From Fimbriosthenelais zetlandica (Eukaryota), in contig OZ365116.1 of NCBI GenBank assembly GCA_977030845.1, positions 16,678,001 through 16,742,000 on the forward strand: DNA of 64,000 bases, given 5' to 3'. The position numbers were made by a program. How positions within the stretch are numbered: the stretch's first letter is position 1; the number at the start of each line of letters is the position of its first letter. Of the stretch, positions 54,001 through 60,000 are shown piece after piece.

Positions 54001-57000
54001 ATCTATCAAATTTCCCACTCCAGCCTGATACCTATTCTCCTCAGAGACGGGGGTTCCACAGTCACCCCAGATCAATGTTTGTATCGGAATCAGTGGGGGA
54101 TCAGGAGCCCTGGCCATCTGGTGGCCACATTGCCATTGATTGTTAGTTATTTATCTGAAGGAGCTGTCCCTCTCCACCCCATTTCTACCCCTCCACCCCA
54201 TCCCAACCCACACATCCCCTATTCGTTATGCAGGGCGCAGTTTTCTGGCCCGTCCCTGACTTTGAATCTGTCTCAAGGGCAGTCTGACCTCTACAATGGC
54301 TTCACACCTATATCCAGCCACATCGGAGAGGGAATCAGTAGAACACCAGCCTCCTAACTAAGGGCTGCAGGATAATTTCTGTTATTCCCGTTTGACCTTG
54401 GGATGTCATTGCGATATCACGATCGTATCATGTGATTTGTCGGTGTCATGGCTGACCACTTTGTCACTTGACACCATATCGTTTTGCTGTTCCCCTCGCG
54501 CCCAAATCGATTCTAGCGTTTTGATGAACATGCAATAACATGCTCAAAATATTCCCTTTGGTGCATGTCCGCTCATAGACATGTATAGCCTAGATCTTCT
54601 CCCATGATCGTTCCTGCTGTTTTCAATTACCATTGACAATTACCTGCAAAGTACTGGGTTCAAACCCACAACCTTTGAGTCGCAATCATGTGTTTTCACC
54701 CACTGAGCAGAGTCACCCTCCCTGAGGGATTATAAAGGGTTTATCTTTGGCGGGACTGCATTATTTGATGTGGATTGGATCTGCTGGTATGGATCAGAGG
54801 TTAGGAGTTTGCCGGGCACAGATCTGGGTTATCAAAGCCCTGATATGAGCATTGAAGGGTAATAACTAGGCCGCGCTGAGCTGAGGACGGCCATCATGGC
54901 TCCTCATGACTATTTTAATCTGTGATTGGACTCCTGTTTATAGCAACCAAGTCCTTGTGTGGATTTTAAATGAGGACAAAATACCTTCTGTCTTGAAAAG
55001 CTTATCCCACATGTGCATGGTTACCCTTATATCGCTTATTTTCAATCAGATTTCCATTAGATAGATCCGTTGAATCGCCTAAATCTTGGTTTGAATTTAT
55101 AAAAACGCCCTGGACCAAACAAAGGAACTGCCTTTTAGCAGTGTCCAAGTCTGACTTCACTAAATTATCTTTGGTGGGAACTGTTGAAGTCAGAGTATAA
55201 CCCATCAGATCCGAAAAGATTAACAAACTATAATCTACTAGCGGGTAGTTAGGGTGCATCTGGTGCTAGTAGGACTTCACAGCACTTGTAACTGTAGCAC
55301 AAGGTCCTATTAGACATGAGGGCATAGTACAAACATCTGCCATGAGATGGAGGTAGTGTGCTTGCTGGGGTATGCCCCATTCATGGGAAAGAGGAAAAGA
55401 GAAGTGAAGCCTCATCTGTTTTCTCTACATTGGCTGGAGACAGAGAGACAGGAAGGGCTGAAACCAGTCTGTACCGGTTCTATAACGCACCCAGGAATCA
55501 TAATAGTGTCTAGTGAGAAGGCTAGAGTAGGTCCTGGGTCTGGGAGAACAGCCCGCGGCAATATACACCCGGCGAGTGGATTGCCAATCTGTCGTAGATG
55601 AGGAAAAGCTGGGTCTCCATGCACATTTGTCGTCAAGAGAAGCTCATGCCGGCAGAGAGAGGCGCTCGGAGAATGAGGACTGAATGGTAGGGACATCTCC
55701 AGGACAGCAGAGGCTCTGTCACCAACAGCACTATTTCCCCTTATACTTCACTGAAAGGTCCTTGACAAGCCGGAGCAGCCTTCCCCCATCCACTCACTCT
55801 AATCCATCTAGCTTTATATTTGAACTGCTCTCATATCATGGTTGTGATTGAAGTATAATAAGGCTGTTTGTAGCGATGACCGGCCCCTGATTGTATTGTG
55901 GGGGTACACAGGGACATTAAACATACCAAACCATTGCTGCTCTGTCTCTCTCTCCCACACACACATTGCCTGTATGCATAAGATTAGGCGTCTGGCTGAT
56001 GCCCTGTGCAGCAGACAGGGCCATCTCGGGGCCCGCCTCTCATGTGCCGCCGTTATGGACTTGTACCATAATGTGTGTATGTTGAGGGTGTGTGTGAGGG
56101 AGCATACATGTGTCAACTAATTTGTGAGTAGGATATAAAGGGGTCCCTCTCCCACGCTGTGACAAGCCCATTTTGAAACAGTCAAATGGGCAGGGTGCAA
56201 CTCTAAGACTGGAGAAGCAGCTCTCTTTTCAGTTTGCCTGGCTGAACCAGCTGCTGCATTGGCAGGCAAGAAGAGGGAATAGTATATAGACTCGGGGCTC
56301 TGTCACGGGCTCCCTCCTCCTCCTCCTGCCCCTCCTCCTCCTCCTCCTGCTCTTGTTCCTGCTCCTGCTCCTCCTCCTCCAGCAGGCCTCCAGCGAGCCA
56401 TCACAGCCATCACTAGGAGCTGGGCAGCAGTCCCACACACCACGTCTCGTCGTTGTCCTCCTCTGCCTCCCGTTGTACTTCTTCACACATAGCAAAGCAC
56501 ATCACCCTCTACTGCTGCACCACCTCACCACCATCAGCGTTTTGTGAACCTTTCTGTGTCCCTTCATTTTTGTGATATATTTATTAGTGTAACCAGCTTC
56601 TTCTTCCTCCTCTGAGCCTGCCTGGAGAGTCTCCTGTCTGCCTTACAACAAATTTCCCTCCATTTGATTGTCAAAGATCTCCACCTTCTGTTCTCCCACC
56701 TCCAGGACTTACATCCTCATCGTTATCTTCCAAAATCCTCATATCTTTCCATATCTTGCCAAACGGGACAAAGTTTACGGAGAGATTACATCAGATGCTT
56801 TGCTATCACGACTATTCCTGTATAGAAGCCTGGTGTATAAGAAGCTGTGAGGATTGGTGGGTAAGTTAGGAAGTGGGTGGACTTGTCTAATCTAGCTGGA
56901 CTATATCTGCAGTCATTATCTCGACTCTGGACAGTCTAGGAGCAGCCAGGCTTGCAGTCATATCACTAGGGAATTATTTCTCTCTACCTAGCTGTACAGA

Positions 57001-60000
57001 CCACTTTTCTCCCCTCTCTCTCCCATACCATTCATCTCCAAGTCTTCCATCAGGGCATTAACCTGCTCCTCCTGCTTCTCCGGCATCTCTTCTTCCTCAT
57101 CCGCAGGAAGGCTGTTTTATATGAGGGAGCGTCGCATACTCTTGCCATCGTTATTGGTGCAGCTCGGTCCCGGACCTTCCTTCATCACTACACAGGAGTA
57201 CAAGCAGTGTGTCCATCCCTCCTACACTCACTTCACTCCCCATACATAGCCATACATCCACCCTGAGCTCTCACAAACACCAGCGAGCTGGAGAAGGCAC
57301 TTCATACCATACCAGACACAAAGCAACACTTGTGGATTCTTGCACATAAAGTACAAGAAGATTAAGAGAGACCTATATGGTACATATATATACCATGCTG
57401 TGAGCTCCATCTATCCTGAACAATTCAACGAACATTATGAGTGTATGATAAGATCGCTGGTTGAATACTCTGTTAACAGACCGTCCATTTTAACTGTGGT
57501 GACTGATGAATGAATATCGCCTTGGAACATTTAACTCAGAAGTCATCCTGTCTTGCTGATTTTCTGGTCATCTTCTCCATGTATCTGCTGTAAAGCTGAG
57601 ATTGTACCGTATTCTGGGAAGACGAGGATACTTACGCAAAACCAGATCTGCTTGAAGTTCCTACTAGAACTCCTCTACAACATCTACTACTGCAACTTCC
57701 CCTAATACAACTACTGCTGAAGATCTCCCCGAGTCGCCTTCTACTGTTTAAACTAACTTCTGCTGGATCCGTCTTTTTGTAAATGATACAAAAAAAATAC
57801 ATTTTACCATCATCGCAAACACCCGCACAACAATTATATAAGATTGGTCCACTCTACTTTACAAAACCAGGATCCCACACATATTTATAATTCTCCACAT
57901 CTAGCATCCAGTTAAATTTACCCCACAACGACTTTTAAGCTTTTTATCTTTCTATCTAAAGAAAACAAAATACTCAAGACAAAATGGCTTGTCTATACAT
58001 CCTTCCACTGCTTACATACTTGGTCTATTTGGCCACCACAACCACATTCGCCCAATTCGCCGAGGTGGAATCATCAGGTAAGTGAAGCCATGCATGACCC
58101 GAACACACTCGACATACCAACTTTATTCTCCCCACCCTCCTGCTTACATCTAAACTTATAACTTGATCTTTTTTCCTCTGAAATTGTCCTCTGTTTGAGA
58201 ATTATTTCTGCAGGTCGCTGGAGGATAAATGGTAAAACCCTGATATCCCAAGGATGGGAAGGGGAAGGGGAAACGTGACTTCCGTAGTCGGTGGGAGTAA
58301 CAAGTATGGCCTATTGGTCTGGAGGACCCCGCCTCCACTAAACAGATTGTCCATCAGATGCCAAACATATTTTCCCTTCCAATAAGACCTAATCATATAA
58401 ATTTTGCCCGCGGGGGCCTTCAGTTCGGTGTGACCCGCGGATAAAATGACGTACAGACTAGGTGCATATGGGAGAAATCTGCGGGACATCTGATGGAAAT
58501 CCACTTAGTGGGTTTGTGCCCAATGGAGGTCAAAGAGGCATATAGATAATTCGAGGGGATATTAGTGCAAATTGTAGTGGGTGTGCTACAATAGGCAGGC
58601 TGGGAATAGACCAGCATGTGTCTATGTGCCAGTAATGAGTGGTTAGGATGGGACGATTATAACTTTGCCCCAATCTAGGTCTGGCTCTGTTGCCGGAAGG
58701 AAGCCAGGGGCACTGGGAAATGAGCGATATCAACATAACTGTGTTATGAATCTATTCACGTGGCAATTGTTGAAGGAACTGTCCGTATATGCATCAATTC
58801 AACTGGCCACGTTTTGAAATTCCATGTGATGTTGACCGTTTATATTGTAACCGGCTTCTTACTGCTTTTGCTCCAGTTTTGAATTTCAGTGAATTCAGCA
58901 TAATTGTGCGGAATATCGTGAATCCAAAATCCATTCTGCACATTATCCGGCTTGGCCTATCTATTATTCGTGCTAATCGCAATATTTCAATTTTTGTCTC
59001 TTAGCTGGCATGTGGAATAACTAATTTTCATATTCTTTCTGCATTCTTTTACATTAATGTTCTTATGACTTGGTTCCAGGCGTTTTGTCATGGCAGCAAT
59101 ATTTGAATGGATTTTTTAAAAATATATCTATATCCTTTACTTTCTATAATTACAACTTCATTGCGATGTGTGTACAAAACTTGAAACCTCATTTAGGACA
59201 TTGACATATTTTTCACAAAGGAGTTGCTGTATCTCAGCGATTTCCATGACCTGCGATCATTGCTCCTGACCCTCACATACCATTAACTCTCAATGGTTTA
59301 AGCCTGAAAACAACATCAATTTTTAAAGGATAAAATACATTGAAGTGTAGGTTTTTGAGTGAAACGGTTCTCTGTTCGGATGTCTTTGAGCGATTTGTAT
59401 GGGGCCGGCTTATCCTGGGATAAAGTGCTGTCTGGGCCTGGTAACTTGGGGGATTAGGCTACAGAGCTGATCATTCCATCCATTATTGTTTTGGAGGAGA
59501 CTGGTAATATAAGGTCCAGATCCACTGATATAGTTTCCAAATAGCGACCAGATGTTTCTCTCATAGTAAAACCAAGATTGACATTTTCCCCATGAGTGCC
59601 TTAACGAGAGAGTAGTCCATGTTAAGATGTAAACCATGACATAAAGAGAAGGCAAGTATCTGATTGTCATCTGATGGAAATCTGCTTAGTTGAGGCGAGC
59701 CCCTAAAAAAAGCCAGCAATCATTGTCCCAGCTCTATCTGATAGCTCAATACTTCATCCCTTAGACTTGCCTTATCTTAATCCTGAGCAGCTCTCAGCTA
59801 TAAAGCCATGAGCTGCTCCTCTGCGGCCAGAACTGTTCATCTGATAGACAGAGGCTTCTCAGAAGTCCTGCTTGCTTGTTGGCAATGCTGCTGGCGTCTG
59901 ATAACATATCACTTAAAAACGGCCCGTTTTCACGGATGGCTGATATGTTAGTGCTTGTGTGTCTGACCTGAATATGAAGCCAATATCTGGCCTAACTGAC

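What the first reader, a model, noticed from the sequence alone, without database searches (positions are those of the whole stretch)
56134..58083. Second 5' end with its own signal peptide: possible internal promoter producing a C-terminal half-protein of the CUB gene
Seen in sequence: promoter-like motifs, a clean non-coding intron, and a 31-codon signal-peptide segment ending in a phase-1 GTAAGT donor. The last CUB exon (29418) also ends in phase 1, and no further CUB exon was found in the 28 kb between them. Inference: both donors could use the same downstream acceptor beyond the window, giving a full-length multi-CUB protein and an N-terminally truncated isoform with its own route into the secretory pathway. 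Established knowledge: C. elegans SOL-1 is a four-CUB auxiliary subunit of AMPA-type glutamate receptors; orthology to it is not proven here. The simpler alternative is the start of an unrelated secreted or membrane-protein gene.
Basis: partly seen in the sequence, partly recalled or inferred. Interest (0 to 1): 0.68.

Follow-up and report, generated by a model that had tools for sequence, protein, structure and literature searches.

The report
Probable gene start encoding a signal peptide
This stretch looks like the real start of a gene for a secreted or membrane protein, lying 28 kb after the last visible exon of a multi-CUB gene, but whether it belongs to that gene or to the next one cannot be told from this window.

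Summary
ATG 57984 opens a 31-codon signal-peptide-like segment plus one base. It ends at a perfect CAG|GTAAGT donor at 58078, in phase 1. The TATAAAGG at 56134, the GTAAGT at 56861 and a strong acceptor are also there; the AG is at 57105-57106, so the exon would start at 57107.

Two results I added argue that this is a real 5' end.
- CAGGTRAGT occurs only twice on both strands of the window: at a Pfam-verified CUB exon and here.
- The 1.8 kb before the ATG is the most ATG-depleted stretch of the window, on the + strand only. Observed/expected is 0.44, against a window mean of 1.01 (SD 0.16), and no shuffle out of 500 was as low.

The CUB claims also hold. Exon 29168-29418 ends in phase 1, and no further domain exon was detected up to 64000.

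No tool here can show where donors 29419 and 58078 land. My estimates:
- Real 5' end: about 0.75-0.8.
- Separate gene: about 0.5.
- Internal promoter of the CUB gene: about 0.22.
- Chance: about 0.2.

This is an ordinary kind of feature and of modest interest.

The parts
56134..56141 (+). Distal TATA-like box (TATAAAGG). An implied start site at about 56160-56190 coincides with the 5' edge of the ATG-poor zone.
   Evidence: sequence. TATAAA occurs 48 times on the + strand, so the motif alone is weak. The last ATG before the 609-nt ATG-free gap is at 56186.
56165..56860 (+). Proposed non-coding exon 1 (5' leader). It is pyrimidine-rich and includes a (CTC)n/(CCT)n tract at about 56310-56385.
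   Evidence: 2 ATGs observed against 8.3 +/- 2.3 expected; 1 of 500 shuffles was as low. It holds the largest ATG-free gap of the whole + strand, 56186-56795. No transcript evidence.
56861..57106 (+). Proposed 246-nt leader intron: TGG|GTAAGT ... pyrimidine tract ... CAG|G.
   Evidence: The donor ranks 44 of 3350 GT and the acceptor 9 of 3837 AG on a heuristic matrix built from recalled frequencies. A TTAAC lies 45 nt before the AG, and all three frames have stops. Splicing not shown.
57107..57983 (+). Rest of the proposed leader (exon 2 up to the start codon). Nine upstream ATGs, seven of them clustered at 57377-57579.
   Evidence: No strong donor or acceptor was found that would remove the ATG cluster as a further intron.
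57835..57842 (+). Proximal TATA-like box (TATATAAG), 149 nt before the ATG. This is an alternative, simpler start site giving an ATG-free leader of about 120 nt.
   Evidence: There is no ATG in 57870-57983, but none is expected there given 7% G.
57984..58077 (+). First coding segment: 31 codons + 1 base encoding a signal-peptide-like sequence. The predicted cleavage after TFA would leave an N-terminal Gln.
   Evidence: translation. It is the only such candidate on either strand. The best 12-residue window has mean Kyte-Doolittle hydropathy 2.11. The -3/-1 rule was applied by inspection; SignalP was not available.
58078..58083 (+). Phase-1 splice donor GTAAGT, part of a perfect CAG|GTAAGT.
   Evidence: CAGGTRAGT occurs twice in 128 kb of both strands: at 28080 (the CUB exon donor) and at 58075. 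It ranks 2 of 3350 GT.
1294..1502 (+). Context: divergent second half of an upstream CUB module (phase 2 in, phase 1 out).
   Evidence: No Pfam or PDB hit. BLASTP against exon 29169-29417 gives E=0.006 with the Cys residues aligned. In the Atlas, 27 of 30 feature hits fall in the CUB-bearing set, top score 0.95. The intron phases match those of the other module.
27866..28082 (+). Context: first half of the CUB module (phase 1 in, phase 2 out).
   Evidence: Pfam CUB E=2.8e-08, profile positions 5-50. Best PDB match is cubilin at 3.8e-14.
29168..29418 (+). Context: second half of the CUB module plus a Ser/Pro-rich linker of about 20 residues (phase 2 in, phase 1 out). This is the last exon of the CUB gene detected in the window.
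   Evidence: Pfam CUB E=1.4e-07, profile positions 57-110. PDB matches: cubilin 2.8e-12, neuropilin-2 3.8e-11, NETO2 4.9e-06.

Best explanation
Region 56134-58083 is the 5' end of a + strand RNA polymerase II transcription unit for a protein that enters the secretory pathway.

How I think it works:
- A TATA-type promoter starts transcription, either the distal box at 56134 or the proximal one at 57835.
- The transcript has a long leader kept poor in ATG codons, possibly interrupted by the 246-nt intron 56861-57106.
- Translation starts at ATG 57984, in a good context.
- The first coding exon encodes only a cleavable signal peptide, with cleavage most likely after TFA.
- The exon ends at a consensus phase-1 donor at 58078.
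- That donor splices to an exon beyond the window, so the intron is at least 5.9 kb.

Most likely this is an independent gene. It would be either the next gene after the multi-CUB gene or a gene nested in that gene's last visible intron.

Shown: the sequence features and their rarity. Inferred: transcription, splicing, secretion and independence from the CUB gene.
For: 1. It is the only signal-peptide-like ATG exon with a GTRAGT donor on either strand. Chance expectation is 0.29-0.41 per window, 0.023 when AG|GTRAGT is required, and 14 of 3000 local shuffles gave any hit.
2. The donor is a perfect CAG|GTAAGT. The 9-mer CAGGTRAGT occurs twice in 128 kb, and the other copy is the donor of the Pfam-verified CUB exon. 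It ranks 2 of 3350 GT.
3. There is a strand-specific ATG desert directly upstream.
  - 11 ATGs were observed against 25.3 +/- 3.9 expected in 56165-57983, and 0 of 500 shuffles were as low. Minus-strand ATGs were 50 against 40.8.
  - The window 56101-57900 has the lowest observed/expected ratio (0.44) of 208 sliding windows. The lowest ratio on the minus strand is 0.62.
  - The two largest ATG-free gaps of the + strand are adjacent here.
  - ATG-poor promoter regions are described in print. I saw the passage in PMC5580651 that cites Lee et al. 2005.
4. TATAAA lies 52 nt before the desert's edge.
5. The start context is caaaATGg, with an in-frame stop 27 nt upstream.
6. For independence: signal-peptide first exons ending in phase 1 are generic, and no domain links this exon to the CUB gene. 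The 26.7 kb between could hide CUB-gene terminal exons without a Pfam signature. Two phase-1-compatible ORFs with membrane-span-like segments exist there, at 36811 and 53405.
Against: - There is no transcript, conservation or orthologue evidence of any kind.
- No downstream exon was found in 58084-64000. Pfam found nothing on 149 long and 106 short + strand ORFs, and no phase-1 acceptor was convincing.
- Under the distal-promoter model the leader carries 11 upstream ATGs with uORFs of 2-42 codons. No further intron that would remove the cluster at 57377-57579 is evident.
- The peptide has no Lys or Arg in its n-region, and its h-region contains Pro, Thr and Tyr.
- The region is pyrimidine-rich, which by itself favours long open frames and hydrophobic codons.
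- There is no CpG island.
- Against independence: no stop codon or terminal exon of the CUB gene was identified before 56 kb. The gene also has a proven 26-kb intron (1503-27865), so an intron that runs past 64000 and contains this exon is plausible.
Confidence: 0.5

Rival explanations
1. This is an internal alternative promoter and first exon of the multi-CUB gene. Donors 29419 and 58078 both join a phase-1 acceptor beyond 64000. The result is a full-length multi-CUB protein and an N-terminally truncated isoform with its own signal peptide, the arrangement known from alpha- and beta-neurexins.
For: - Same strand, and both donors are phase 1.
- No CUB-gene exon, stop or terminal exon was detected in 29419-56133.
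- The gene has a 26-kb intron, so an intron of at least 34.6 kb is credible.
- AATAAA is rarer on the + strand than on the minus strand in 29419-56133, 10 against 23. This would fit read-through transcription, but the proven intron shows no such bias (32 against 28), so it is weak evidence.
- There is precedent for internal promoters with their own N-terminus: I saw the neurexin passage in PMC11909895.
- There is also precedent for a first exon lying inside an intron of a CUB/LDL auxiliary-subunit gene and splicing to its exons: I saw the eat-18 in lev-10 passages and the S2 figure legend in PMC7173930.
Against: - Phase 1 is the default for signal-peptide exons and CUB modules, so phase agreement carries little weight.
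- To my knowledge (recalled, no count made here), mid-gene promoters with their own signal peptide are much rarer than simply the next gene.
- The common acceptor, if any, lies outside the window.
- The last CUB exon carries a Ser/Pro-rich stalk-like tail. If that precedes only a membrane span and a cytoplasmic tail, the short isoform would lack any ectodomain.
Confidence: 0.22
2. Chance. This is a fortuitous ATG-initiated hydrophobic open frame followed by a donor-like word, inside a pyrimidine-rich, low-complexity intronic or intergenic stretch. No exon or promoter exists.
For: - The signal-peptide-like exon pattern alone is expected 0.29-0.41 times per window.
- TATA-like words are common: 48 TATAAA on the + strand.
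- The pyrimidine-rich composition lowers stop and ATG frequency and favours hydrophobic codons.
- The criteria were chosen after the candidate had been seen.
- No downstream exon was found, and there is no homology support.
Against: - ATG depletion remains after correcting for dinucleotide content, is strand-specific, and is the extreme of 208 windows.
- The perfect 9-mer donor is one of only two in 128 kb.
- Local-composition shuffles reproduce the exon pattern in only 14 of 3000.
- These features are largely independent of one another and coincide within 2 kb.
Confidence: 0.2
3. A tiny two-exon gene lying wholly in the window. Donor 58078 joins the acceptor AG at 58212-58213 (136-nt intron). 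Reading in phase 1 then gives 21 more codons to a TGA at 58276-58278, that is, a small secreted peptide precursor of 52 residues.
For: - The frame is open in phase 1 from 58214 to the TGA (read).
- The acceptor ranks 341 of 3837 on my crude score, better than two genuine CUB acceptors at ranks 625 and 726.
Against: - No AATAAA or ATTAAA occurs on the + strand until 60831.
- A repeated foldback-like element begins at 58331, just after the stop.
- There is no homology or domain, and an open frame this short is expected by chance.
Confidence: 0.05

Closest known systems
Signal-peptide first coding exons of modular extracellular proteins (phase-1 exon-shuffling architecture)
   Same: A short first coding exon encodes just the signal peptide and ends in phase 1. 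It is compatible with the phase 1-1 CUB modules seen in this window, whose boundaries at 1502, 27866 and 29418 are all phase 1.
   Different: The exon it joins is not in the window, so the mature protein is unknown. The n-region lacks a basic residue.
Alpha/beta-neurexin genes (long isoform from the 5' promoter, short isoform from an internal promoter)
   Same: I saw the passage in PMC11909895. That beta-neurexin has its own signal peptide I saw only in a cited title there.
   Different: No shared downstream exon has been shown here. The domain family differs (CUB, not LNS/EGF). No transcript evidence.
C. elegans lev-10 / eat-18 locus (a CUB/LDL auxiliary-protein gene hosting another gene's first exon)
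   Same: A first exon of a second product lies inside an intron of a CUB-domain receptor-auxiliary gene, on the same strand, and splices to host exons. I saw the passages and the S2 figure legend in PMC7173930.
   Different: The eat-18 first exon lies in the first intron and reads the host exon in another frame. EAT-18 is a small membrane protein with the reverse topology, not a signal-peptide isoform. The present window is not nematode-like in intron size (26-kb intron).
SOL-1 / dSol-1 (four CUB domains + membrane span; glutamate-receptor auxiliary subunits) and NETO/SOL-2 (two CUB + LDLa + membrane span)
   Same: A + strand gene with at least two CUB modules. NETO2 is among the PDB matches at 4.9e-06 and 2.7e-05. 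The architectures are as described in PMC9083331, where I saw the passages.
   Different: The best PDB matches are cubilin and neuropilin-2, not NETO. No LDLa exon and no verified membrane-span exon was found. Orthology could not be tested.
ATG deserts at promoters (Lee et al. 2005, as cited in PMC5580651)
   Same: There is a kilobase-scale lack of ATG around or after a start site, ending at the start codon.
   Different: The review passage I saw ties ATG deserts to dispersed promoters. Here a TATA box is present, the depletion is strand-specific, and a cluster of seven ATGs interrupts it at 57377-57579.

Membership tests
Eukaryotic cleavable N-terminal signal peptide | Hydrophobic h-region of about 7-15 residues near the N-terminus, without charged residues | tested here: met
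   The best uncharged 12-residue window has mean Kyte-Doolittle hydropathy 2.11 and starts within the first 12 residues.
Eukaryotic cleavable N-terminal signal peptide | Positively charged n-region | tested here: not met
   No Lys or Arg occurs before the h-region. Common in signal peptides but not obligatory (established knowledge, recalled).
Eukaryotic cleavable N-terminal signal peptide | Small uncharged residues at -3 and -1 of a cleavage site, 3-7 residues after the h-region | tested here: met
   T-F-A followed by Q at residues 21-24, by inspection. The rule is recalled (von Heijne). No SignalP was available.
Eukaryotic cleavable N-terminal signal peptide | Actual targeting and cleavage | not testable with these tools
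   Needs a secretion assay or proteomics.
RNA polymerase II promoter with 5' leader | TATA box about 25-35 nt before a start site | tested here: inconclusive
   TATAAAGG lies at 56134 and TATATAAG at 57835. The start site is unknown, and such words are frequent: 48 TATAAA and 35 TATAWAWR on the + strand.
RNA polymerase II promoter with 5' leader | Leader depleted in upstream ATG on the sense strand only | tested here: met
   Observed/expected 0.44, the lowest of 208 windows. 0 of 500 shuffles were as low. The minus strand is not depleted.
RNA polymerase II promoter with 5' leader | Capped transcripts starting here | not testable with these tools
Spliceosomal GT-AG intron (56861-57106) | Consensus donor, pyrimidine tract + YAG acceptor, branch-point motif | tested here: met
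   GTAAGT donor at rank 44 of 3350; acceptor at rank 9 of 3837; TTAAC 45 nt upstream of the AG. These are motifs only. The matrix was built from recalled frequencies, and the local pyrimidine richness inflates the acceptor score.
Internal alternative promoter of the host (CUB) gene | The first exon lies within an intron of the host gene | tested here: inconclusive
   No host exon was detected after 29418 within the window. So it cannot be said whether the gene continues past 58 kb.
Internal alternative promoter of the host (CUB) gene | Splices in frame to the exon also used by the upstream donor | not testable with these tools
   Phases agree, both phase 1, but the acceptor lies outside the window and no RNA data exist.
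CUB domain (PF00431) | Match to the family profile above the curated cut-off | tested here: met
   Exons 27866-28082 and 29168-29418 score 34.5 and 32.2 bits against a cut-off of 21.4, covering profile positions 5-50 and 57-110. Exon 1294-1502 does not reach Pfam and is CUB-like only.
SOL-1-type glutamate-receptor auxiliary subunit | Four CUB domains followed by one membrane span; orthology to SOL-1/dSol-1 | not testable with these tools
   Only two CUB modules are visible and no verified membrane-span exon. Architecture from PMC9083331.

The most novel reading that the evidence does not exclude
A multi-CUB, SOL-1/NETO-like receptor-auxiliary gene with giant introns carries a neurexin-beta-style internal promoter. 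From it, a short isoform with its own signal peptide is made that holds only the C-terminal CUB domains and/or the membrane anchor. It could act as a separately regulated, possibly competing, modulator of the receptor complex.
Probability: 0.2. Interest if true: 0.5.

Novelty: new member of a known kind. Interest (0 to 1): 0.27.

Why it matters
If it is simply the first exon of the next gene, it matters only for correct annotation. It fixes a gene start, a signal peptide and a long ATG-poor leader that gene predictors could easily miss or wrongly fuse to the CUB gene.

If the internal-promoter reading were true, a CUB-domain auxiliary-subunit gene would gain an alpha/beta isoform logic like that of the neurexins. 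That would be of real but specialist interest for synaptic receptor regulation.

The ATG-desert test used here is a cheap, sequence-only way to support a 5' end when no expression data exist.

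Tried and rejected
I did not recode the stops. Instead I scanned stop-to-stop ORFs one by one.
  - + strand 29994-63931: 149 of 206 ORFs of at least 40 aa (those of at least 47 aa). Best E=0.0052, no credible family.
  - Short + strand ORFs: 106 scanned. 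These were all 45 ORFs of 25-46 aa starting at or after 58000, and 61 of 239 lying in 29.5-58 kb (those of at least 40 aa or with at least 3 Cys). Nothing was found. 178 short ORFs were left unscanned.
  - Minus strand 29.4-64 kb: 149 of 203 ORFs of at least 40 aa. Nothing.
  - + strand 1-29500: 149 of 179. Only the two CUB ORFs matched.
  - The minus strand of 1-29.5 kb was not scanned.
2. phmmer and an HMM of the window's own CUB exons against all 1662 six-frame ORFs of at least 25 aa found no further CUB-like ORF after 29418.
3. Rfam found 0 families and ARAGORN 0 tRNAs.
4. Self-BLAST showed that the finding region is single-copy in the window apart from a small repeat at 58331-58511.
5. 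I searched for a further leader intron that would remove the ATG cluster at 57377-57579. There is no good donor; the best is GCT|GTGAGC, score 1.1.
6. I looked at phase-1 acceptors in 58084-63990. None of the eight with score at least 3 gives a convincing exon.
7. Strand asymmetry of GTRAGT and AATAAA, tried as a sign of read-through transcription, was inconclusive because the proven intron does not show the AATAAA bias.
8. A CpG-island test found none; observed/expected is 0.25-0.47 across 56-57.7 kb.
9. The Atlas searches only confirmed CUB and gave no useful taxon.
10. The tiny two-exon peptide gene was considered and ranked low.

Full report
**What the window is.** It is 64 kb of animal-like nuclear DNA. 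G+C is 41.7% and CpG observed/expected is 0.44. There are no N, no Rfam family and no tRNA. I could not name the organism, and I do not take the window for human. All protein searches were made exon by exon. The remaining genome collection holds only bacteria and archaea and was not used. No orthologue or conservation evidence could therefore be obtained.

**The observation.**
- TATAAAGG lies at 56134-56141.
- GTAAGT lies at 56861.
- A pyrimidine tract ends in CAG with its AG at 57105-57106.
- ATG lies at 57984 in the context caaaATGg.
- The open segment is MACLYILPLLTYLVYLATTTTFAQFAEVESS plus one base.
- CAG|GTAAGT follows, with its GT at 58078, so the donor is phase 1.
- An in-frame TAA lies 27 nt before the ATG.
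- The proposed 246-nt intron has stops in all frames, no ATG, and a TTAAC 45 nt before its AG.

**The CUB gene.**
- Pfam finds CUB in two + strand exons. Exon 27866-28082 matches profile positions 5-50 at E=2.8e-08. Exon 29168-29418 matches positions 57-110 at E=1.4e-07.
- The best solved relatives are cubilin, neuropilin-2 and NETO2.
- A further exon at 1294-1502 has the same phases (2 in, 1 out). It aligns with the second-half exon at E=0.006 with both Cys matched. In the Atlas, 27 of 30 feature hits fall in the CUB-bearing set. It has no Pfam or PDB hit.
- So the gene has at least two CUB modules and a 26-kb intron (1503-27865). Only 2 of the 149 + strand ORFs scanned in 1-29500 reach Pfam CUB.

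**Is the signal-peptide exon more than chance?** My scan looked for ATG with a purine at -3, an uncharged hydrophobic 12-mer, and GTRAGT within 16-45 codons.
- It finds one candidate on both strands, this one.
- Whole-window dinucleotide shuffles give a mean of 0.41 (100 shuffles) and 0.29 (300 shuffles). With AG before the donor the mean is 0.023.
- The region is pyrimidine-rich, which favours open, hydrophobic frames. I therefore also shuffled the local 2.2 kb, and 14 of 3000 shuffles gave any hit.
- The criteria were chosen after I had seen the candidate, so this is moderate evidence at best.

**Two independent additions.**

First, the donor.
- The 9-mer CAGGTRAGT occurs only twice in the 128 kb of both strands. 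One copy is the donor of the verified CUB exon (28080) and the other is here (58075).
- On a heuristic matrix built from recalled frequencies, these two donors rank 1 and 2 of 3350 GT.

Second, the 1.8 kb before the ATG is an ATG desert on the + strand only.
- 11 ATGs were observed against 25.3 +/- 3.9 expected from dinucleotide shuffles, and 0 of 500 shuffles were as low.
- ATG on the minus strand is not depleted, 50 against 40.8.
- The flanks show only mild depletion, 40 against about 50.
- In a sliding scan with a first-order expectation, 56101-57900 has the lowest ratio (0.44) of 208 windows. The mean is 1.01 and the SD 0.16. The lowest ratio on the minus strand is 0.62.
- The two longest ATG-free gaps of the + strand, 609 and 326 nt, are adjacent at 56186-57121.
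- The desert begins 52 nt after the TATAAA at 56134 and ends at the start codon.
- Promoter regions poor in ATG are known. I saw the passage in PMC5580651 that cites Lee et al. 2005.

Together these make a real 5' end likely. I put it at about 0.75-0.8.

**What stays unclear inside the leader.**
- The distal model (start near 56165, intron 56861-57106) leaves 11 upstream ATGs with uORFs of 2-42 codons.
- Seven of these ATGs cluster at 57377-57579, where ATG density is normal.
- No good donor or acceptor pair would remove that cluster.
- A second TATA-like box, TATATAAG at 57835, would give a simple leader of about 120 nt.
- The acceptor at 57106 ranks 9 of 3837 AG and the donor at 56861 ranks 44 of 3350 GT. 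However, the two genuine CUB acceptors rank only 625 and 726, so the acceptor score discriminates poorly.
- There is no CpG island.

**What follows the donor.** Nothing recognisable follows within the window.
- No Pfam family at a credible E-value was found among 149 + strand ORFs of at least 47 aa in 29994-63931.
- The same holds for 106 shorter + strand ORFs and 149 minus-strand ORFs of at least 45 aa in 29.4-64 kb.
- Profile searches with the window's own CUB exons find no further CUB-like ORF after 29418. Sensitivity is limited: Pfam also missed the exon at 1294-1502.
- A short phase-1 reading from the acceptor at 58213 ends at a TGA at 58276-58278. No AATAAA or ATTAAA follows before 60831, and a repeated foldback-like element starts at 58331. 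I rank that tiny-gene model low.

**Same gene or separate gene?** The only link to the CUB gene is strand and phase. Phase 1 is the rule for signal-peptide exons and for every CUB module border seen here.

- No terminal exon of the CUB gene was found.
- The gene has a proven 26-kb intron.
- AATAAA is rarer on the + strand in 29419-56133, 10 against 23. The proven intron shows no such bias (32 against 28), so this is not reliable.

For a separate gene:
- This is the commoner situation (my judgement, recalled).
- Terminal exons encoding a membrane span and tail would carry no Pfam signature.
- Two phase-1-compatible ORFs with membrane-span-like segments exist, at 36811 and 53405. Both are unverified and lie in low-complexity or ambiguous sequence.

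Beta-neurexins come from an internal promoter (passage in PMC11909895). The first exon of eat-18 lies in the first intron of the CUB/LDL gene lev-10 and splices to its exons (passages and a figure legend in PMC7173930; the figure itself and the supplements were not seen). SOL-1 and dSol-1 have four CUB domains plus a membrane span, and SOL-2 and Neto have two CUB domains plus LDLa (passages in PMC9083331). Orthology of this gene to any of them was not testable.

**Verdict.** My estimates are: independent gene about 0.5, internal promoter of the CUB gene about 0.22, chance about 0.2, tiny in-window gene about 0.05. This is an ordinary kind of feature, a new member of a known kind, of modest interest. 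The internal-promoter reading is the most novel one left open.

Noticed in passing
window 1294-1502 (+): A divergent CUB second-half exon that Pfam and PDB sequence searches miss. It was recognised by its intron phases, a pairwise alignment (E=0.006) and Atlas features. It implies a 26-kb intron to the next CUB exon at 27866.
   Followed up: yes
window about 28494-28583 (+), inside the intron between the two halves of the CUB module: A short ORF segment resembles the middle of the exon at 1294-1502: 14 of 30 residues identical, BLASTP E=1e-04, and hmmsearch E=0.005 among 1662 ORFs. It may be a decayed duplicate (pseudo-exon) or chance.
   Followed up: partly
window 29419-29423 (+): The donor after the last CUB exon reads G|GTTAGT, so an in-frame TAG follows one codon after the exon end. 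Retention of this intron would end the protein right after the Ser/Pro-rich linker and give a soluble CUB-only product.
   Followed up: no
window 58331-58511, 11726-11891, 59658-59690: A small repeated element of about 180 bp. It matches its copy near 11.8 kb in both orientations, so it is foldback- or MITE-like with terminal inverted repeats. A partial copy lies at 59.66 kb.
   Followed up: partly
window 36811-36984 (+) and 53405-53720 (+): These are the only two ORFs after 29418 that follow a passable acceptor and contain an uncharged 19-residue hydrophobic segment. Both are in the phase (1) that donor 29419 needs; none was found in phases 0 or 2. The first is followed by basic residues and a stop. 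They are possible terminal or membrane-span exons of the CUB gene, or chance in low-complexity DNA.
   Followed up: partly
whole window, both strands: Donor-like hexamers GTAAGT + GTGAGT are more frequent on the + strand (39) than on the minus strand (21). The excess is seen in the proven intron (12 against 4), in 42-56 kb (6 against 1) and in 58-64 kb (5 against 0), but not in 29.4-42 kb (11 against 11).
   Followed up: partly
window 56310-56385 (+): A (CTC)n/(CCT)n low-complexity tract lies inside the proposed leader. The 2 kb at 56001-58000 has the strongest C-over-G skew of the window, -0.21.
   Followed up: no
window 37565-38221 (+): The longest open frame of the window (218 codons) has no Pfam match. 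It lies in the 2 kb with the lowest CpG observed/expected ratio, 0.23. Its nature is unknown.
   Followed up: no
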